Assembly: GCA_050944035.1 (NCBI GenBank)
Contig: JBMNQH010000004.1
Coordinates: forward strand, 2,995 to 66,994
Length of the DNA stretch: 64,000 nucleotides
Source: Oscillospiraceae bacterium
GTDB taxonomy: Bacteria; Bacillota; Clostridia; Oscillospirales; Oscillospiraceae
Direction of reading: 5' to 3'
The translations under genes and the position numbers were made by a program. Positions 9,999-54,640 of the stretch are shown here, one piece after another. Position 1 is the first letter of the stretch. Each line of letters starts with the position of its first letter. The notes beneath the pieces were generated by a model. That model searched no databases and had not been told where the DNA came from. It was given only the letters and a program-made list of their open reading frames with translations.

Positions 9999-10007
9999 CC
10001 TCTCATA

Positions 10008-10050
10008 AAAAATCAGCGGTACTGATTCTGTCAGTACCGCTGATTTTTTA
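10008..10050 (+). terminator. clpC intrinsic terminator
   Basis: AATCAGCGGTACTGA-ttctg-TCAGTACCGCTGATT followed by TTTTT. Confidence 0.85.
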
Positions 10051-10055
10051 TATGT

Positions 10056-10083
10056 AAAACAAAAAAGCCCCCTTGACAGGGGG
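10056..10083. repeat. Left copy of a 28-bp perfect direct repeat (terminator-like hairpin)
   Basis: AAAACAAAAAAGCCCCCTTGACAGGGGG, identical to 11570-11597. Confidence 0.95.
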
Positions 10084-10126
10084 AGAATGCAATGGTGGAT
10101 GCGGAAAAATCGAAGATTTTTAAGAG

Positions 10127-10220
10127 AAGTTTGTTGTGTATGTTACAAACTTTTTGAAATTACAAATTTTTTAATATTAATAACACAAACTTGAAATTTT
10201 TTAAAAGTTTGTGTTATACT
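10127..10220 (+). promoter_or_regulatory. Two palindromic operators plus the promoter of the ATPase gene
   Basis: AAGTTTGT-N10-ACAAACTT at 10127-10152. ATAACACAAACTT-N12-AAGTTTGTGTTAT at 10180-10217, spanning TTGAAA (10191-10196) and TATACT (10215-10220). Confidence 0.6.
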
Positions 10221-10238
10221 AATAACGGAGGTGATACC

Positions 10239-11561
10239 ATGCCTAAAACCGGATCTGAATTGAGAGCCCGTCCACTCTATCTGAACCGTTTGATTGCATT
10301 TCAGGATACCGAGCCTGTCAAAATCATTACGGGTATTCGCCGTTGTGGCAAGTCCAGCCTGCTGAAGCTGATGGCCAATCATCTTCGGGAAACGGGCATA
10401 GCAGATATCCAAATTATCGAAATGAATTTTGAATCAATGGCGTTTCGAAAAATGACGGTTGAGGAACTGTATCAGTATGTCAAACAGCGCTTACCAGAGA
10501 ATAAGCGTGCCTATCTGTTTTTCGATGAGATTCAACACATCAACGAATGGCAAGATGCAATTAATTCTTTCCGTGTGGATTTTGATTGCGATATCTATGT
10601 TACCGGTTCCAATGCATATTTGCTTTCTTCCGAGTATGCAACCTATCTTGCAGGACGGAGCGTGGAAATTAAGATGCTTCCATTGTCTTTCCGGGAATTT
10701 TTGGATTTCCATAGCTATGCCGTGACGGAGAGCAGGCGTCCGGCAGGCGGTTTGAGAAAACAAATCTGTGATGCGTCTGGCGAAAGCTATGAGCCGCAGG
10801 AGCTGCTGGAAGCGTATATAAAATTTGGCGGGATGCCTGGTATTGCTGACGTTGGTTTGGATACTGATAAAGCGCTGACACTCTTGGATGGCATATATTC
10901 CACGGTTGTTGTGCGTGATATTCTGGAACGCGAAAAACGAAGAGGACAGCGGCAGCTGACCGATCCGGAACTGCTGCGTAGAATCATCATGTTTCTGGCT
11001 GATAACATTGGCAACACAACTTCCATTACTTCGATCGGCAATACCCTGGTCAATGAAAAGCTTCTGGACGGCAGTAATCGGAGAGGAAAACCTGCGGTAC
11101 AAACCATTCAGGCATATGTGGCTGCACTGCTGGAATCCTATGTGTTCTATGAGATCAAGCGTTTTGATATAAAGGGAAAAGGATTTCTCCGGACTATGGG
11201 CAAGTATTATATTATAGATACTGGTCTGCGAAACTATCTGTTGGGCTTTCGGGATATGGACATCGGGCATATCATTGAAAATCTTGTTTACTTTGAACTG
11301 CTTCGCCGCGGCTATGATGTAGCCATTGGCAAGGTCGATAATAAAGAAGTGGATTTTATTGCCACCAATGCAAGCGAAAAGCGATATATTCAGGTAACCG
11401 AGTCTATGAATGATCCGGCTACCCGTGAACGGGAGCTTGTACCGTTGCGTGCCATTCGGGACAATTACGAAAAAATCGTAATTACCAGCCACTGTGACAA
11501 TCCCATCACGCAAGACGGGATTAAAATCATAAAATTAACGGACTTCCTATTGGATGACTAG
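10239..11561 (+). CDS. AAA+ ATPase with C-terminal DUF4143-type domain (COG1373-like)
   Basis: 440 aa counted from the ATG behind the GGAGGTG RBS. Walker A GIRRCGKSS, Walker B LFFDEIQ, conserved C-terminal domain. Confidence 0.8.
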   Translation: MPKTGSELRARPLYLNRLIAFQDTEPVKIITGIRRCGKSSLLKLMANHLRETGIADIQIIEMNFESMAFRKMTVEELYQYVKQRLPENKRAYLFFDEIQHINEWQDAINSFRVDFDCDIYVTGSNAYLLSSEYATYLAGRSVEIKMLPLSFREFLDFHSYAVTESRRPAGGLRKQICDASGESYEPQELLEAYIKFGGMPGIADVGLDTDKALTLLDGIYSTVVVRDILEREKRRGQRQLTDPELLRRIIMFLADNIGNTTSITSIGNTLVNEKLLDGSNRRGKPAVQTIQAYVAALLESYVFYEIKRFDIKGKGFLRTMGKYYIIDTGLRNYLLGFRDMDIGHIIENLVYFELLRRGYDVAIGKVDNKEVDFIATNASEKRYIQVTESMNDPATRERELVPLRAIRDNYEKIVITSHCDNPITQDGIKIIKLTDFLLDD

Positions 11562-11569
11562 GCGTGTCG

Positions 11570-11597
11570 AAAACAAAAAAGCCCCCTTGACAGGGGG
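11570..11597. repeat. Right copy of the 28-bp perfect direct repeat
   Basis: Identical to 10056-10083. Begins 9 nt after the ATPase stop codon. Confidence 0.95.
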
Positions 11598-11617
11598 CCT
11601 TAAATTTCGATAAGGTC

Positions 11618-11646
11618 TTGCATCCGATGGATAACTTTGCTATAAT
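11618..11646 (+). promoter_or_regulatory. Orphan near-consensus sigma-A promoter
   Basis: TTGCAT, 17-nt spacer, TATAAT. No credible ORF follows. Confidence 0.65.
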
Positions 11647-11652
11647 CAACTT

Positions 11653-11816
11653 GGAAAATAAAAATGCGGCAGCTTATGGGTGCGCCAACACCCATAAGCC
11701 TGCGCAGGTGTAACGCACACACCTACACAACGGTCTGTCTCGACCGCACCACGAGATTATTATACGACATTTTCACCTCTGTTGCAAGGGGTGGTTTTCG
11801 TCGCATAGATTTTTTT
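11653..11816 (+). ncRNA. Candidate structured small RNA of unknown class
   Basis: 14-bp bulged hairpin 11669-11703. 6-bp hairpin 11706-11724. 5-bp hairpin 11738-11756. 7-bp terminator stem 11774-11793 followed by a U-tract, plus T7 at 11810-11816. Confidence 0.4.
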
Positions 11817-11891
11817 GTGGTGGTGTTGCATAAGAACGCGGTTTCTTGCGCTGTGTAGGATATTCCTGCATGGCGTTTTTTATTTTCCCGG

Positions 11892-11919
11892 GCTCCCCGG
11901 GGGCTTGCCCCCGGGGAGC
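11892..11919. other. 28-bp GC-rich perfect palindrome
   Basis: GCTCCCCGGGGGC-tt-GCCCCCGGGGAGC in a non-coding spacer. Confidence 0.7.
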
Positions 11920-12049
11920 TTTGACGGAGAAAAAAGGGGAACACTCTCTTTCTTTTTTACCCCAAAACTTTTTATTTCCGCATGATAAAAAGCTTTCTCT
12001 ATTTTTCTTCTTTTTTCTCTGTTTTCCTTGCCGGCCTGTCCAGCTGGCA

Positions 12050-12075
12050 GCCCCCTCAGTCGAGGGGGCATTTTA
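12050..12075 (+). terminator. Terminator-like hairpin facing the 3' end of the HTH array
   Basis: GCCCCCTC-agtc-GAGGGGGC followed by ATTTTA. Confidence 0.5.
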
Positions 12076-12121
12076 TGGCGAGACGCAAAAGAACGGTGAG
12101 CCTTCCCTTTTGGAAAAGCCG

Positions 12122-12391
12122 CTATTCGTCATCGTCGCTTTCCTCGTCGAAAGAATATGCACTGAGTTCCTCAAAATCTAAAAACTCAGCAGGTGTCATA
12201 TTGAAAGCATTTGCAATTTTATGGATTGTTTTAAGTTTGGGGTCAAAGGTTCGTCCATTGACCAGATGTTCCAAACCAGCTTGGCTAATCCCACTCATAC
12301 CTGCTAATTTATGAACGGAGATGCCACGCTTTTTGCATAACGCTACTATTCGGTTAGAGACGACTTGAGAATAGGTTTTATTCGTCATCAT
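12122..12391 (-). CDS. XRE-family HTH protein with acidic tail, array copy A (last transcribed)
   Basis: 89 aa from MMTNK. HTH KLAGMSGISQAGLEHLVNG. Tail FDEESDDDE. Confidence 0.8.
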   Translation of the reverse strand: MMTNKTYSQVVSNRIVALCKKRGISVHKLAGMSGISQAGLEHLVNGRTFDPKLKTIHKIANAFNMTPAEFLDFEELSAYSFDEESDDDE

Positions 12392-12647
12392 CGGTTTCCT
12401 CATCGAAAGAATAATCGTTAAATTCTTTGAAGTCTAAAAACTCAGCGGGTGTCATGCCAAAGGCAAGTGCAATTTTATGCAGCGTCATAATTCTGGGATT
12501 AAGAGTCCTTTTATTAACCAAATTGTCAAGAGTACCTTGACTAACACCACTCATATCTGCCAATTTATTTATAGAAAGACCGCGATTTCTGCAAAGAGAT
12601 CGTATGCGATTGACTAAAATTTTTGCATAAGCTTCATTCGTCATCAT
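12378..12647 (-). CDS. XRE-family HTH protein with acidic tail, array copy B
   Basis: 89 aa from MMTNE. Tail FDEETDDDE. 14-nt overlaps with both neighbouring copies. Confidence 0.85.
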   Translation of the reverse strand: MMTNEAYAKILVNRIRSLCRNRGLSINKLADMSGVSQGTLDNLVNKRTLNPRIMTLHKIALAFGMTPAEFLDFKEFNDYSFDEETDDDE

Positions 12648-12903
12648 CGGCTTCCTCGTCGAAAGAATAATCGTTAAATTCTTTGAAGTCTAAAAACTCG
12701 GCGGGTGTCATGCCAAAGGCAAGTGCAATTTTGTGCAGTGTAATAATTTTTGGATTTAGTGAATTTCCACTGACTAAGTTACCTAGGGTGGAATGACTAA
12801 CGCCACTCATCTCTGACAGCTTATTAACAGCAATACCGCGGCTTTTGCAGAGTCCTAATATCCGATTGACTAAAATTTTTGCGTAAACTTCATTCGTCAT
12901 CAT
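12634..12903 (-). CDS. XRE-family HTH protein with acidic tail, array copy C
   Basis: 89 aa from MMTNE. The track's start at 12930 is an upstream out-of-context ATG. Tail FDEEADDDE. Confidence 0.85.
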   Translation of the reverse strand: MMTNEVYAKILVNRILGLCKSRGIAVNKLSEMSGVSHSTLGNLVSGNSLNPKIITLHKIALAFGMTPAEFLDFKEFNDYSFDEEADDDE

Positions 12904-13156
12904 CGGCTTCCTCGTCAAAGGAATAATCATTAAATTCTTTGAAGTCTAGAAACTCGGCGGGTGTCATACCAAAAGCAATTGCAATTTTGTGTAGAGTTGC
13001 AATTCTGGGATTAAACGTCTTCCTATTGACTAAATTATCAAGAGTTGAAGAGCTGATGCCGCTCATAACTGACAATTTATTTATAGTGATGCCACGGTTT
13101 TTACAAAGCGATAATATTCGATTAACGATAATTTGGGAATATGGCCTATAATCCAT
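12890..13156 (-). CDS. XRE-family HTH protein with acidic tail, array copy D (first transcribed)
   Basis: 88 aa from MDYRPYSQ, behind the RBS AAGGTGAGG. Tail FDEEADDDE. Confidence 0.8.
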   Translation of the reverse strand: MDYRPYSQIIVNRILSLCKNRGITINKLSVMSGISSSTLDNLVNRKTFNPRIATLHKIAIAFGMTPAEFLDFKEFNDYSFDEEADDDE

Positions 13157-13168
13157 CTGCCTCACCTT

Positions 13169-13253
13169 GCTATCAGAAACACAGTTCATAGAAATAGTGT
13201 TTTCATGATAGCAATAAAAATACTCTCAATCTCCCGAATTCAGGATATTGAGA
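13169..13253. promoter_or_regulatory. Divergent control region with two inverted repeats
   Basis: Imperfect 44-bp palindrome GCTATCAGAAACAC...GTGTTTTCATGATAGC at 13169-13212. TCTCAAT-N16-ATTGAGA at 13224-13253. Confidence 0.45.
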
Positions 13254-13281
13254 TGAACTCATATTGATTGAAGGGTTGACT

Positions 13282-13761
13282 ATGGAAAAGGATTTATCAA
13301 TCTTAACGGAGAAGCAACGGATTGCATATCTGCTGCGGGAACAGGGACTAACATATAAGAGCATTGGGGAGAAAATGGGGATTTCCGCCAGTGCTGCCCA
13401 ACAGAATGTGAAAGGTGCAGAACAAAGATTTTATGAGTATGAAAAATACCATGCACAGCGGGAACGGGACAAACAGCCGATTGACTTTCCGCTGACGCGG
13501 GGAGAACTGAATGAAATTCTAGCTGCGGTTCGTATGCTGGAATGGGATTTGGTGCGGCAGTCCACGAACTTCAGAAGAGGTTGGGGAGAGCGTCTGACAT
13601 ACCGGTGTCAGGTGGTTAACGCCTTGTCGAAACGGATACAGATTGCGCTCTGTGGCCGGGTTGTTTATTCAAGTCTGGTAGACCTGTCGCTGGAGTTGAA
13701 GGAAAAACCGGACAATCGTCTGATGCGGTTGGAGGAAGAAACCGTACAGGATCAGGATTGA
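13282..13761 (+). CDS. Sigma-70 region-4 / YlxM-like HTH protein with unknown C-terminal domain
   Basis: About 160 aa. N-terminus LTEKQRIAYLLREQGLTYKSIGEKMGISASAAQQNVKGAEQRF. The start could also be the TTG at 13264. Confidence 0.6.
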   Translation: MEKDLSILTEKQRIAYLLREQGLTYKSIGEKMGISASAAQQNVKGAEQRFYEYEKYHAQRERDKQPIDFPLTRGELNEILAAVRMLEWDLVRQSTNFRRGWGERLTYRCQVVNALSKRIQIALCGRVVYSSLVDLSLELKEKPDNRLMRLEEETVQDQD

Positions 13762-29182: not shown

Positions 29183-29450
29183 ACTTTGTAATCTCTTTGC
29201 ACTGCATTACATCCCAATTTGGGATGCAAGATCAGCAGTACAAACTGAGCAGGCGATGCCCGAGAGGGCGTGGGGCCGGGCCGCTGGGCGCAGCGGCAAC
29301 AGATTACATCGTATGCTGTGTACATCTGTGGGACAGTTGTATGTTCCATAGGTGTATTTTTTATATTTATGGAGCAGCCGACCTCAATGGAGTGCCATAA
29401 GAGAAATCATAACACCGCCGCATTTTTGGCGGGAAACGGAGGATTCTTTT

Positions 29451-32046: not shown

Positions 32047-32120
32047 TGGCAGCGGGTGAAGGATTCGAACCCTCACAAACGGAGTCAGAGTCCGGTGTGC
32101 TACCATTACACAAACCCGCT
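32047..32120 (-). tRNA. tRNA-Gln (anticodon CUG), copy 1, CCA encoded
   Basis: Manual fold: acceptor AGCGGGT/ACCCGCT, anticodon loop CUCUGAC, T-arm GAGGG-TTCGAAT-CCTTC. The CACCGGAnUCUGAnUCCG core resembles E. coli tRNA-Gln. Confidence 0.85.
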
Positions 32121-40447: not shown

Positions 40448-40521
40448 TGGCAGCGGGTGAAGGATTCGAACCCTCACAAACGGAGTCAGAGTCCGGTGTG
40501 CTACCATTACACAAACCCGCT
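40448..40521 (-). tRNA. tRNA-Gln (anticodon CUG), copy 2
   Basis: All 74 nt identical to 32047-32120. Identity continues 2 nt further. Confidence 0.85.
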
Positions 40522-54423: not shown

Positions 54424-54469
54424 GAAAAAGCATTGACAAATACAGAAAAAGCAGATAAGATAAATACGT

Positions 54470-54640
54470 AGCAATCCGGGGAGTAAATGCCCATAGCATT
54501 TGCTGAGAGGAGAATGTTCTCGACCCGTATCACCTGATCCGGTTCATGCCGGCGTAGGAAGATTGAGTGAAAGAAAAGAAACACAAGTGGTAAAGTTTGT
54601 GATTTTCAGCGGTCTTCCAAAGGAGGGCCGCTTTTTTGCT
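54470..54640 (+). promoter_or_regulatory. TPP (THI-box) riboswitch with terminator platform
   Basis: CGGGGAG...GCTGAGAGG...ACCCGTATCACCTGATCCGGTTCATGCCGGCGTAGGAAG, then GCGGTCTTCC-aaa-GGAGGGCCGC followed by TTTTTT. Promoter TTGACA-17-TAAGAT at 54433-54461. Confidence 0.9.

What the first reader, a model, noticed from the sequence alone, without database searches (positions are those of the whole stretch)
12122..13156. Four head-to-tail XRE-HTH paralogues chained by a dual-coding 14-nt stop/start overlap
Four 88-89-aa genes repeat with an exact 256-bp period.

- **Junctions.** Each junction reads ATGATGACGAATGA (ATGATGACGAATAA at B/A). One frame reads (G)AT GAT GAC GAA TGA, giving the tail DDDE-stop. 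The other frame reads ATG ATG ACG AAT GA, giving MMTNE of the next gene.
- **Embedded signals.** The preceding acidic codons (GAC GAG GAA) supply a GAGGA Shine-Dalgarno. The conserved acidic tail therefore also encodes the next gene's SD and start codon. That implies obligate translational coupling and near-equimolar output.
- **Conservation pattern.** By my hand alignment, the last 34 residues (LHKIALAFGMTPAEFLDFKEFNDYSFDEExDDDE) differ at 1 position between B and C and 1 between C and D. The first 55 residues of B and C differ at 19 positions. These differences cluster in the predicted recognition helix (SQGTLDNLVNKRT, SHSTLGNLVSGNS, SSSTLDNLVNRKT, SQAGLEHLVNGRT).
- **DNA level.** The 3' roughly 105 nt of B, C and D are about 90-95 percent identical, while the 5' parts are diverged.

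The picture is a set of repressors with diversified DNA specificity and one shared acidic C-terminal module. That module could be a partner-binding surface or a DNA mimic. I know of no described system with this organisation.
Basis: partly seen in the sequence, partly recalled or inferred. Interest (0 to 1): 0.8.

Follow-up and report, generated by a model that had tools for sequence, protein, structure and literature searches.

The report
Strain-variable tandem array of XRE regulators
A gut Oscillospiraceae genome carries four old, intact copies of a small Cro/cI-type DNA-binding regulator chained head-to-tail with overlapping stop and start codons; strains of the same species carry from one to at least four copies with swapped DNA-reading segments, which makes this an unusual layout of an otherwise ordinary, mobile-element-derived repressor module.

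Summary
Four minus-strand genes of 88-89 aa repeat every 256 bp at 12122-13156. All are HTH_26/HTH_3 (XRE) proteins, joined by 14-nt stop/start overlaps preceded by GAGGAA.

- The acidic C-terminal module is a hallmark of a large family of mostly single-copy 79-89-aa XRE genes in gut Clostridia. It is not special to the array.
- The paralogues are old (synonymous sites saturated) and under purifying selection (dN/dS 0.1-0.2).
- Only adjacent copies (X1-X2, X2-X3) show 3′ homogenisation.

New findings:
- Strains of the same species carry 1, at least 3, or 4 copies, with crossovers in the conserved 3′ segment and a swapped helix-turn-helix segment.
- Three of the seven HTH types recur in a sister species at 83-87% identity.
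- A conserved sigma-region-4-like HTH gene, whose family occurs in ICEs and gut phages, is divergently transcribed.
- A palindromic operator-like site upstream covaries with the type of the first gene.
- The locus lies in a low-GC island.

Best reading: an autoregulated repressor operon derived from a mobile-element switch and expanded by tandem paralogy. It is a new variant of a known kind, of moderate interest. Translational coupling and the tail's function remain untested.

The parts
12890..13156 (-). 88 aa, type-A HTH (SSSTLDNLVNRKT), with its own canonical SD and start.
   Evidence: ORF; Pfam HTH_26 1.2e-12; identical protein on independent contigs L008 and L009; the HTH segment is 83% identical to L010_a of a sister species.
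12634..12903 (-). 89 aa, type-B HTH (SHSTLGNLVSGNS). It starts inside X1's tail codons.
   Evidence: L009 unit 2 matches X2 (29-30 of 30 per block) to about nt 240, then its last 30 nt match X3 30/30.
12378..12647 (-). 89 aa, type-C HTH (SQGTLDNLVNKRT).
   Evidence: A 98%-identical copy is present in strain L020. The AF2 model has pLDDT 88.9: a five-helix XRE core, a short sixth helix and a disordered acidic end.
12122..12391 (-). 89 aa, type-D HTH (SQAGLEHLVNGRT). It is the most diverged copy, including its 3' part.
   Evidence: It has the same HTH as the sole gene of the single-copy strain L049 (100%) and L010_c of the sister species (87%).
12890..12903 (-). 14-nt dual-coding overlap X1|X2 (ATGATGACGAATGA). 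The SD-like GAGGAA lies at 12908-12913.
   Evidence: Read directly from the sequence. A homologous 11-nt overlap (ATGAATCATAA) occurs at the a|b junction of the sister-species array L010.
12634..12647 (-). 14-nt dual-coding overlap X2|X3 (ATGATGACGAATGA). GAGGAA lies at 12652-12657.
   Evidence: The local RNA fold is unremarkable (z +0.81).
12378..12391 (-). 14-nt dual-coding overlap X3|X4 (ATGATGACGAATAA). GAGGAA lies at 12396-12401.
   Evidence: The same TAA junction follows X2 directly in strain L009.
13160..13168 (-). Shine-Dalgarno of X1 (AAGGTGAGG), 3 nt before the ATG.
   Evidence: Sequence. Conserved in L003, L010, L013 and L018.
13169..13212 (.). Conserved 44-bp imperfect palindrome (GCTATCATGAAAACAC-N14-GTGTTTCTGATAGC in XRE orientation). 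Its left arm contains a -10-like TATCAT. It is a candidate promoter/operator element or 5'-UTR hairpin.
   Evidence: The arms are invariant across four loci whose first XRE genes differ in type, while the centre varies in length (36-46 bp). It is present in distant L003, which has no partner gene nearby. RNA fold z -2.2.
13230..13247 (.). Operator-like palindrome (TCTCCCGAATTCAGGATA on the + strand; core TCCTGAATTCGGGA in XRE orientation), about 80-95 nt upstream of the X1 start.
   Evidence: Best match in the whole 64-kb window to the family-wide site TAACCCGAATTCGGGTTA (17/18; the other hits are at chance level). The same position carries palindromes in L001, L002, L003, L010, L043 and L046. 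It is replaced by CGCTCTCGCAAGAGCG in the D-type single-copy strain L049.
13282..13761 (+). Divergent partner gene, 159 aa. An N-terminal sigma-70-region-4/GerE-type HTH is followed by a helical domain with no solved relative. NCBI calls it 'sigma factor-like HTH DNA-binding protein'.
   Evidence: Pfam Sigma70_r4_2 7.8e-8. Homologues are divergent from XRE family genes in L010-L019, L023-25 and L049. The family also occurs in ICE regulatory regions and gut phages. AF2 pLDDT 86.7; Foldseek matches cover only the HTH.
11578..11601 (.). Bidirectional terminator-like hairpin. It is the first convincing minus-strand terminator downstream of X4 and the probable end of the operon transcript (inferred).
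   Evidence: Terminator scan.
10000..13600 (.). Low-GC island (37-47% against 52-58% in the flanks). It holds the DUF4143/AAA_14 ATPase (10191-11561, +), the 560-bp non-coding stretch, the array and the partner gene.
   Evidence: Composition profile. The ATPase matches PADLOC candidate PDC-S01 at 1e-152.

Best explanation
The locus is a four-cistron operon of old paralogous Cro/cI-type (XRE, HTH_26) DNA-binding proteins, in a small horizontally acquired island of an Oscillospiraceae genome.

- Transcription (inferred): it starts at one promoter in the 125-bp region shared with a divergently transcribed, conserved sigma-region-4-like HTH gene. That promoter carries a palindromic operator matched to the first gene of the array, so the operon is most likely autorepressed by its head gene. 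The pair probably works as a repressor/counter-regulator switch of the kind used by conjugative elements and phages.
- Translation: cistrons 2-4 start inside the acidic tail codons of the preceding cistron. GAG GAA supplies the SD and GAT GAT the ATG. This allows, but does not force, coupled translation.
- Specificity: each paralogue carries a different helix-turn-helix segment and therefore probably reads a different operator.
- Shared parts: the C-terminal part (helices 4-6 plus an acidic disordered end of about 9 residues) is a hallmark of the whole family. It is kept by purifying selection and, between neighbouring copies, by gene conversion.
- Dynamics: recombination through this conserved 3' segment adds, deletes and reshuffles units, so strains of one species carry one to at least four copies.

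Shown: the anatomy, the paralogue age and selection, the strain polymorphism, the conserved partner, the operator covariation and the mobile-element affinity of both families. Inferred: DNA binding, autorepression, a polycistronic transcript, coupling and the role of the tail.
For: - Anatomy and domains.
- Old paralogues under purifying selection: 5' pS 0.57-0.84, dN/dS 0.1-0.24.
- 3' homogenisation only between adjacent copies: X2-X3 pS 0.18 vs 0.59 (p = 0.008); X1-X2 0.42 vs 0.79 (p = 0.013).
- Family-wide tail: 320 homologues, nearly all 79-89 aa, ending ...EFLDFKELNDYSFDD followed by acidic residues. The AF2 model orders residues up to about 80 and leaves the last ~9 at pLDDT 55.
- Copy-number and cassette polymorphism within the species: L049 has a single gene, exactly 768 bp fewer, with flanks 92-99% identical. 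L009 = X1, an X2/X3 crossover unit, then a new E-type unit. L020 = an F-type unit, X3, then an E-type unit.
- HTH types are conserved across species at 83-87% for three types (A, D, F) and differ by 37-70% between types.
- Conserved divergent partner.
- Family-wide operator-like palindrome just upstream of a TATCAT/TATAAT hexamer. The window site is the best in 64 kb. It covaries with the head-gene type.
- Mobile-element affinity. XRE family members sit next to Tn7-like TnsB/TniB/TniQ, a D5 primase, FtsK/SpoIIIE and Rep_trans. Partner family members sit next to TraG/VirD4, MobL and a Tn916-like HTH_16 + sigma_r4 pair, and in Evtepia phages. The locus lies in a low-GC island.
- Fold matches to DdrO, CapH, SinR, 434 Cro, C.AhdI and Lp1 protein 11.
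Against: - No experiment or expression data. DNA binding, the promoter, the polycistronic transcript and coupling are all inferred.
- The consensus promoter scan found no good sigma-70 promoter in the intergenic region. The -35 element is poor.
- Only an operator for the head gene was found. No cognate sites for X2, X3 or X4 exist in the 64-kb window, so their targets are unknown.
- The big conserved palindrome (13169-13212) is unexplained. Its arms are conserved regardless of XRE type, and its variable centre argues against a rigid dimer site.
- The island has no integrase or transfer genes, so the mobile-element origin rests on relatives and composition only.
- The strain contigs L009 and L020 end inside the array, so their true copy numbers are unknown.
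- The partner's role as activator, anti-repressor or second repressor cannot be decided.
Confidence: 0.6

Rival explanations
1. Combinatorial heterodimer code. The four proteins share a nearly identical C-terminal dimer interface and are made in similar amounts from one coupled message. They therefore form mixed dimers that read hybrid operators, which multiplies the number of specificities. The 3' homogenisation exists to keep the interfaces compatible. This extends the best explanation and is not exclusive of it.
For: - The last 34 residues of X1-X3 differ at 1-2 positions, and adjacent copies show 3' homogenisation.
- The stop/start overlaps allow co-translation.
- The window's operator is asymmetric (half-sites CCTGAA and CCCGAA), whereas L002, L003 and L010 have perfect palindromes.
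- A precedent for interacting tandem XRE paralogues exists: C. difficile SinR/SinR' (PMC5864091).
Against: - No multimer model or interaction data could be produced here.
- X4 has a clearly diverged C-terminal part (pN 0.12-0.14).
- The single-copy strain L049 works with the D type alone.
- The dimer interface of this family is not known.
Confidence: 0.2
2. The conserved acidic tail is a shared effector surface, either a partner-binding peptide for the sigma-like protein or RNA polymerase, or a DNA mimic. The array exists to deliver several DNA specificities with one common output, in obligate equimolar amounts.
For: - The tail is strongly conserved (invariant F80; nearly invariant E68, F69, L70, D71, F72, E74 and N76) and ends in a disordered acidic run. 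That is typical of short linear interaction motifs.
- The sigma-like partner is conserved next to the closer family members.
Against: - The tail is equally conserved in family members with no sigma-like neighbour: L001, L002, L003 and L043-L048. It therefore cannot be specific to that partner or to the array.
- Residues 71-80 are predicted as part of the folded domain (pLDDT 93).
- Nothing enforces coupling.
- The L002 and L010 b-c junctions have spacers with their own signals, and the second and third L002 copies have lost the acidic end.
Confidence: 0.12
3. Orphan-repressor immunity array. The island is a defence-type locus. Each paralogue silences the regulatory switch of a different family of incoming conjugative elements, transposons or phages that use cognate operators. 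Strain-to-strain cassette turnover reflects an arms race with those elements.
For: - Both gene families are native to the regulatory regions of mobile elements.
- The locus is a low-GC accessory island beside a PADLOC PDC-S01 candidate defence ATPase.
- It shows presence/absence and cassette polymorphism within one species.
- X2-X4 have no cognate operator in the window.
Against: - No target element was identified.
- The family proper is absent from IMG/VR viral contigs, and phage hits are at most 48% identical.
- dN/dS gives no sign of an arms race.
- Three HTH types are conserved at 83-87% between species, which suggests stable targets.
- Adjacency to PDC-S01 was seen only in the window.
Confidence: 0.12
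4. Assembly artefact or decaying duplicates. The array is a mis-assembled repeat in a MAG, or a set of recent redundant duplicates on the way to loss.
For: The window comes from a metagenome-assembled genome. Short-read contigs of other samples break inside the array. A single-copy haplotype exists.
Against: - The units share at most 41 nt of exact sequence and differ at 18-34% of nucleotides (48-92 of 267).
- Synonymous sites are saturated, yet all frames are intact with dN/dS 0.1-0.2.
- Unit junctions are reproduced in three independent assemblies.
- A related array exists in a sister species.
- L049 has its own distinct N-terminus and operator, so it is not a collapse of this array.
Confidence: 0.03
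5. Toxin-antitoxin antitoxins. The XRE genes are HigA/MqsA-type antitoxins of type II TA modules.
For: XRE HTH proteins are common antitoxins (general knowledge; PMC2701414 was listed).
Against: No toxin-like ORF adjoins any unit; the genes abut each other. There are no TA family hits in Pfam, NCBIfam or PADLOC. The conserved neighbour is an HTH protein.
Confidence: 0.03

Closest known systems
Small Cro/cI-type and controller (C) proteins of the XRE superfamily (434 Cro, P22 C2 N-domain, C.AhdI/C.BclI, Lp1 prophage protein 11 3b7h)
   Same: - A five-helix HTH fold: Foldseek TM 0.55-0.72 to these entries, and phmmer E = 2e-7 to 3b7h, with the alignment running through the 'FLDF..N' segment.
- A size of about 70-90 aa.
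- A palindromic operator overlapping the protein's own promoter, in two or three copies in some relatives.
- A divergent second regulator.
   Different: - Four tandem paralogues instead of one gene.
- A conserved sixth short helix plus an acidic disordered tail.
- The divergent partner is a sigma-region-4-type HTH protein, not a Cro- or MOR-type protein.
- No phage or restriction-modification genes are attached.
Tn916 Orf9 / Orf7-Orf8 switch (also PBSX Xre/Xpf and ICEBs1 ImmR): an XRE repressor opposing sigma-like activators in mobile elements
   Same: - An XRE repressor is paired with a small protein carrying a sigma-70 region 4 HTH. In Tn916, Orf9 represses Porf7 and Orf7/Orf8 activate it (PMC5812530).
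- Partner-family members lie in ICE regulatory regions, next to a Tn916-like HTH_16 + Sigma70_r4_2 pair in L026-28.
   Different: - Here the region-4 HTH is at the N-terminus and is followed by an unrelated helical domain. In the sigma-like models the partner hits (e.g. NCBIfam PRK06930, 'positive control sigma-like factor'), region 4 lies at the C-terminal end, positions 108-159 of 170.
- In L026-28 the partner homologue is a separate gene from the Orf7-like one.
- The island has no xis, int or tra genes.
- The array consists of four XRE genes.
C. difficile sin locus (sinR-sinR') and B. subtilis SinR/SinI/SlrR
   Same: Two XRE-family paralogues are encoded in tandem in one operon, and one modulates the other by direct interaction (PMC5864091). 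SinR is among the best sequence and fold matches.
   Different: - SinR-type proteins carry a C-terminal multimerisation domain that is absent here (88-89 aa in total).
- The NCBIfam SlrR score is far below its cut-off (25 vs 250 bits).
- There are four copies, overlapping junctions and strain-variable copy number.
DdrO/IrrE, CapH/CapP and ImmR/ImmA: XRE repressors inactivated by a partner metalloprotease
   Same: The best Foldseek hits are the DdrO and CapH N-domains. Some relatives have a metalloprotease next door: a SprT-like gene beside P0086, and an HExxH ORF beside a partner homologue in L021.
   Different: No protease gene adjoins the array. These proteins lack the C-terminal dimerisation and cleavage domain of DdrO, CapH and ImmR.

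Membership tests
XRE / Cro-C1 HTH superfamily (Pfam HTH_26 PF13443, HTH_3 PF01381) | Sequence match above the curated cut-off | tested here: met
   All four proteins score 37-48 bits on HTH_26 (cut-off 22) and 29-36 bits on HTH_3 (cut-off 23).
XRE / Cro-C1 HTH superfamily (Pfam HTH_26 PF13443, HTH_3 PF01381) | Five-helix fold with helices 2-3 forming the HTH | tested here: met
   AF2 model with pLDDT 88.9; helices at 2-20, 25-32, 36-43, 52-61 and 66-69, plus 73-77. Foldseek matches DdrO, CapH, SinR, 434 Cro and C-proteins with probability 1.0.
XRE / Cro-C1 HTH superfamily (Pfam HTH_26 PF13443, HTH_3 PF01381) | Binds a palindromic operator | tested here: inconclusive
   A candidate palindrome is present at a conserved position and covaries with the head-gene type. 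Binding itself cannot be tested with these tools.
Translationally coupled operon | Co-directional genes with stop/start overlap and an SD inside the upstream gene | tested here: met
   14-nt overlaps at three junctions, each with GAGGAA 4 nt before the first ATG.
Translationally coupled operon | No independent promoter or terminator between the cistrons | tested here: met
   Inside the array there are only two weak promoter-like hits (9 of 12) and two weak terminator-like stems with 3 G-C pairs each. The promoter-like total for the region is at chance level (4 found, 4.3 expected).
Translationally coupled operon | Downstream translation depends on upstream translation | not testable with these tools
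   Junction RNA folds are unremarkable (z -0.8 to +0.8), so no structure enforces dependence. Reporter fusions or ribosome profiling are needed.
Prophage cI-type immunity repressor | Located in a prophage immunity region; family found in phage genomes | tested here: not met
   The neighbours are clpC, an ATPase, a membrane protein and spoIID. The family proper is absent from IMG/VR, and the best INPHARED hit is 48% identical.
Prophage cI-type immunity repressor | C-terminal oligomerisation/S24 peptidase domain | tested here: not met
   The proteins are 88-89 aa and show only HTH-type domains.
SinR/SlrR family | NCBIfam equivalog score and a SinR-type C-terminal multimerisation domain | tested here: not met
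   SlrR model: 21-26 bits against a cut-off of 250. There is no C-terminal domain.
Tn916 Orf7-like / ECF-type sigma factor (for the partner gene) | Sigma regions 2 and 4, with region 4 at the C-terminus | tested here: not met
   Only region 4 matches, and it lies at residues 1-51. All sigma NCBIfam scores are far below their cut-offs. Foldseek aligns only about 50 residues.
Type II toxin-antitoxin (XRE antitoxin) | Adjacent toxin gene | tested here: not met
   No candidate ORF lies between or beside the units. No TA family hits.
Anti-phage defence system (PADLOC) | Match to a defence-system protein model | tested here: inconclusive
   The XRE proteins give only weak hits (capH, control protein, HTH_VI; E 1e-4 to 1e-6). 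The neighbouring ATPase matches candidate PDC-S01 at 1e-152. A functional link between the two is not shown.

The most novel reading that the evidence does not exclude
The array is a recombining cassette store of repressor specificities, a chromosomal 'immunity array'. Each unit silences, or is tuned to, the regulatory switch of a different family of conjugative elements, transposons or phages circulating in the gut community. Units are gained, lost and re-headed by recombination through the conserved 3' segment and the conserved promoter palindrome. The unit that lands at the head brings its own operator.
Probability: 0.12. Interest if true: 0.7.

Novelty: new variant of a known kind. Interest (0 to 1): 0.4.

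Why it matters
**If the reading is right.** The locus would be a natural example of how a one-gene autoregulated repressor module expands into a multi-specificity operon. Three features make it instructive:
- An acidic tail whose codons happen to contain an SD and a start codon.
- A conserved 3′ segment that acts as a recombination handle.
- Helix-turn-helix segments that behave as exchangeable cassettes, with an operator that changes along with the head gene.

**What it offers for experiments.** It provides a compact set of closely related protein/operator pairs (types A and D already have candidate sites) for studying the specificity code of small XRE proteins.

**Two uncharacterised families.** It also points to two families associated with mobile elements in gut Clostridia: the tailed 80-aa XRE family and the N-terminal sigma-region-4 partner family.

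**Limits.** It does not open a long-standing question, and most single elements are of familiar kinds: XRE repressors, overlapping genes, tandem paralogues and a divergent regulator.

Tried and rejected
- **Rfam.** The gathering-threshold scan of the whole window and a permissive scan of 11500-13320 found no RNA family in or beside the array. The best hit was Phe_leader at 30.6 bits against a cut-off of 55, a terminator-like match. The non-coding stretch is not conserved with the sister loci.
- **GC-rich hairpins as REP-like repeats.** CAGCCCCCT occurs only once in the window.
- **Partner-anchored metagenome and viral scans.** They gave almost nothing: 2 loci and 0 loci. The large protein database was needed instead.
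- **Plasmid database.** No partner homologue; only distant XRE hits.
- **Further operator sites.** Scans for A-type and D-type sites in the window were at chance level apart from the site at 13230-13247.
- **Divergent genes beside distant family members** (L043, L046). None match the partner profile, so the partner is confined to the closer clade.
- **Fold searches for the partner's C-terminal domain.** No informative match in PDB or BFVD.
- **Literature searches** for tandem XRE arrays, acidic-tailed HTH repressors and DUF4143 defence. Nothing comparable was found.
- **Positive selection on the recognition helix.** Rejected: dN/dS is 0.09-0.14 where it can be computed, and synonymous sites are saturated.
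Full report
**1. Observation**

The window holds four intact, co-oriented minus-strand genes. I number them in transcription order: X1 12890-13156 (88 aa), X2 12634-12903, X3 12378-12647 and X4 12122-12391 (89 aa each).

- Tandem Repeats Finder reports a 256-bp period with 81% matches, no indels and score 891.
- All four proteins exceed the Pfam cut-offs for HTH_26 and HTH_3.
- Each junction reads GAT GAT GAC GAA TGA (TAA at X3|X4) in the upstream frame and ATG ATG ACG AAT GA/AA in the downstream frame. That is a 14-nt overlap, with GAGGAA 4 nt before the first ATG.
- The differences between copies run from the end of helix 1 through helix 3 and the next loop. They are not confined to the recognition helix.
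- The window is part of a 146-kb contig of an Oscillospiraceae MAG. There the four genes are annotated only as HTH domain proteins (MGI6013315-18).
- Assembly artefact is unlikely. The longest exact repeat between two units is 41 nt. Independent assemblies reproduce the junctions (L008 100% identical; L009; L020).

**2. Age and selection**

- Synonymous sites in the first 55 codons are saturated (pS 0.57-0.84). dN/dS is 0.1-0.24, also in helices 2-3. These are old paralogues under purifying selection, not recent duplicates and not positively selected.
- After removing the dual-coding codons, the 3′ part has significantly lower pS only for the adjacent pairs: X2-X3 (0.18 vs 0.59, p = 0.008) and X1-X2 (0.42 vs 0.79, p = 0.013). 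X4 is saturated throughout.
- The 3′ similarity is therefore protein-level constraint (pN 0-0.014) plus local gene conversion or unequal crossing-over between neighbours.

**3. The tail is a family trait**

- A search of 5.8 billion proteins returned 320 relatives. Nearly all are 79-89 aa, from Oscillospiraceae, Ruminococcaceae and Christensenellaceae MAGs. They end in ...TLHKIALAF.MT..EFLDFKELNDYSFDD followed by a short acidic run.
- In the contexts I inspected, most are single genes: L001, L013-L019 and L043-L048.
- The AlphaFold model (pLDDT 88.9) shows the five-helix XRE core and a short sixth helix (residues 73-77), with residues 71-80 at pLDDT 93. Only the last ~9 acidic residues are disordered.
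- The closest solved structure, Lp1 prophage protein 11 (3b7h), aligns through the 'FFDFPPYNE' segment.
- So the 'shared C-terminal module' was not invented for the array. A plausible reverse logic (inference) is that codons for E-E-x-D-D-D-E (GAG GAA ... GAT GAT GAC GAA) inherently contain an SD-like GAGGA and out-of-frame ATGs. They also resemble X1's own SD/start region (GGTGAGGCAGATGGAT). This pre-adapts the tail to become a fused stop/start junction after unequal recombination.

**4. Strain and species variation**

Same species:
- L049 has flanks 92-99% identical to the window and the same membrane gene, partner gene and downstream non-coding DNA. It carries one XRE gene, with an X1-like N-terminus and an X4 body. 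That is exactly 768 bp (three units) fewer than the window.
- L009 carries X1, then a unit that is X2 up to about nt 240 followed by X3's last 30 nt (a crossover in the conserved 3′ segment), then a new unit.
- L020 carries a different head unit, then X3, then the same new unit.
- The new unit equals X4 at nt 1-60 and 151-180 (28-29 of 30) in L009, slightly less in L020 (24-28 of 30). At nt 61-150, exactly helix 2-turn-helix 3, it matches nothing in the window.
- L009 and L020 end just after the X4-identical segment, so their full copy number is unknown (at least 3).

Sister species:
- L010-L012 has three units. Units a and b overlap by 11 nt at a junction homologous to the window's. Units b and c are separated by a 69-nt spacer.

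HTH types:
- Classifying all units by their HTH segment gives seven types.
- Identity across species within a type is 83-87% for types A, D and F. Type E is looser: its closest sister-species units, L010_a and L010_b, are both 70% identical to it. Identity between types is 37-70%. The matches are X1 = L010_a, X4 = L049 = L010_c and L020_u1 = L013.
- At least those three types predate the species split, while array composition turns over within a species.

Other arrangements:
- A Christensenellaceae MAG (L002) has three family copies in tandem, with spacers and separate signals, plus a fourth more distant paralogue.

**5. Conserved partner and control region**

Partner gene:
- X1 is divergent from a 159-aa gene (13282-13761). 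It has an N-terminal sigma-70-region-4/GerE-type HTH and a helical C-terminal part with no solved or viral structural relative.
- Homologues with the motif MEKD.SILT.EQ..AYLLR...IDFPLTRGEL occupy the same divergent position in L049, L010-L012, L013-L019 and L023-L025.
- The partner family has about 100 clusters, all unnamed. It also occurs in ICE regulatory regions beside other XRE genes, with TraG/VirD4, MobL and a Tn916-like HTH_16 + Sigma70_r4_2 pair nearby.
- It also occurs beside an RHH gene near spo0A, and as a lone gene in Evtepia and other gut phages.

Elements in the 125-bp intergenic region:
- (i) A 44-bp imperfect palindrome (13169-13212) abuts X1's SD. Its arms (GCTATCATGAA.AC / GT.TT..GATAGC) are invariant in all close loci and in distant L003, whatever the XRE type. 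Its centre varies in length. Its left arm holds a -10-like TATCAT.
- (ii) An operator-like palindrome lies at 13230-13247 (core TCCTGAATTCGGGA). Sites of the same geometry lie at the same distance upstream of family genes elsewhere: TAACCCGAATTCGGGTTA in L002, TTAACTGAATTCAGTTAA in L003, TTCCCGCTCACGGGAA in L010, and ACCCG-N4-CGGGT two or three times in L001, L043 and L046.
- The window's site is the best match in all 64 kb, and the other hits are at chance level.
- In L049, whose only gene is D-type, this position carries a different perfect palindrome, CGCTCT-CGCA-AGAGCG. L013 and L018, with other head types, carry other palindromes.
- This covariation is the best available evidence that the site is the head gene's operator and that the paralogue types differ in DNA specificity.
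- No D-type site exists in the window, so the targets of X2-X4 are unknown.

**6. Origin**

- The stretch from about 10,000 to 13,600 is a low-GC island: 37-47% against 52-58% in clpC and spoIID.
- It contains an AAA_14/DUF4143 ATPase that matches PADLOC candidate PDC-S01 (1e-152), 560 bp of non-coding DNA, the array and the partner gene. No integrase or transfer gene is present.
- More distant XRE family members lie beside a Tn7-like TnsB/TniB/TniQ module and a D5 primase (L043-45), and beside SprT-like, FtsK/SpoIIIE and Rep_trans genes (L046-48).
- The family proper is absent from viral contigs and annotated phages.
- Both families therefore look like regulators of integrative and conjugative elements. 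Here they are parked in a small accessory island.

**7. Mechanism**

Most likely (confidence about 0.6):
- One autorepressed promoter drives a four-cistron message.
- The head protein binds the operator next to the promoter.
- The partner acts as the counter-regulator of a switch inherited from mobile elements.
- Cistrons 2-4 are initiated at GAGGAA/ATG inside the preceding tail. Coupling is possible but not enforced, because the junction RNA folds are unremarkable (z -0.8 to +0.8).
- The paralogues read different operators.
- Recombination through the conserved 3′ segment changes copy number and order.

Rivals:
- Heterodimer code (0.2, compatible with the best explanation).
It is weakened because the tail is equally conserved where no partner gene is present.
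- Orphan-repressor immunity array (0.12).
- Assembly artefact or decaying duplicates (0.03).
- Toxin-antitoxin antitoxins (0.03).

**8. Comparison with known systems**

- The proteins are members of the XRE superfamily by sequence and fold.
- They are not cI-type prophage repressors, SinR/SlrR, or antitoxins. The defining features of each were tested and not met.
- The partner is not an Orf7/ECF-type sigma factor.
- Functionally, the nearest analogues are small autoregulated Cro/C-protein modules, the Tn916 Orf9 versus Orf7/Orf8 switch (PMC5812530) and the C. difficile sinR-sinR′ tandem paralogue operon (PMC5864091).
- I found no paper describing tandem XRE arrays with overlapping junctions, within-species copy-number variation and HTH cassette exchange.

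**9. Verdict**

The feature is real, and its description is correct. It is partly wrong: the tail is not array-specific, there is no positive selection, nothing shows obligate coupling, and no link to the ATPase or an RNA was found. Novelty: new variant of a known kind. Interest: 0.4.

Noticed in passing
window 10191-11561 (+): The AAA_14 + DUF4143 ATPase next to the array matches the PADLOC phage-defence candidate PDC-S01 at E = 1e-152. This exact sequence is not in the 15-billion-protein collection. Whether it is functionally tied to the array is unknown.
   Followed up: partly
window 11562-12121: A 560-bp non-coding stretch lies between the ATPase and X4. It contains GC-rich hairpins (12050-12069; about 11889-11918), a purine-rich tract and + strand terminator-like sites (11848-11876, 12050-12069). 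It also has a good minus-strand promoter-like site (TTGCAA-17-TATAAT, 11787-11759) about 160 nt upstream of the bidirectional terminator at 11578-11601, which could mark a small RNA. No Rfam family matches, and the stretch is not conserved with L010 or L018.
   Followed up: partly
window 13169-13212; also L003, L008-L019: The arms of the 44-bp palindrome in front of the first XRE gene are conserved in sequence across loci with different XRE types and with or without the partner gene, while its centre varies from 8 to 18 bp. What binds it, or whether it acts as a hairpin, is unexplained.
   Followed up: partly
L010 2064-2204 and L018 1338-1529: Directly after the last XRE gene of two sister loci there is a conserved stretch of about 140 nt that reads as a 46-aa pseudo-ORF (MNEKASSDEGAFLPPLCKGRWIAVRRAGGIDLKE...). 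It starts inside the acidic tail in the same way as the array junctions. It is probably a conserved non-coding element and is absent from the window.
   Followed up: no
L043-L045: A family member (P0093) sits between a D5_N/DUF5906 primase-helicase gene and the TniQ-TniB-TnsB genes of a Tn7-like transposon in Ruminococcaceae contigs. Three ACCCG-N4-CGGGT palindromes lie upstream of it. It may be the transposon's regulator.
   Followed up: partly
L046-L048: Family member P0086 is convergent with a SprT-like zinc metalloprotease gene and lies near FtsK/SpoIIIE and Rep_trans genes, an ICE/IME-like setting. This resembles ImmR/ImmA-type repressor-protease pairs.
   Followed up: no
L021 19-885 and 1158-1913: A partner homologue appears as the C-terminal part of a 288-aa ORF and is followed by an HExxH (ImmA/IrrE-like) protein. 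This is another hint that these regulators belong to protease-controlled switches.
   Followed up: no
L002 4304-7309: A Christensenellaceae MAG has three family copies in tandem with spacers of about 140-170 bp. The second and third copies have lost the acidic end. A fourth, more distant HTH_26-like paralogue lies 1.4 kb upstream. The family is therefore prone to local expansion in other lineages too.
   Followed up: partly
window 32050-32120 and 40451-40521 (-); 29235-29338; 54467-54577: Two tRNA genes have identical Rfam scores (59.4 bits) and lie 8.4 kb apart, possibly a duplicated segment. A NiCo riboswitch and a TPP riboswitch are also present elsewhere in the window.
   Followed up: no
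window 12122-12135: X4's own tail keeps a relic of the junction (GAC GAT GAC GAA TAG contains ATGACGAATAG). No fifth unit follows; the out-of-frame ATG there reads M-T-N and then the TAG. This is consistent with the junction sequence being an inherent property of the tail codons.
   Followed up: yes
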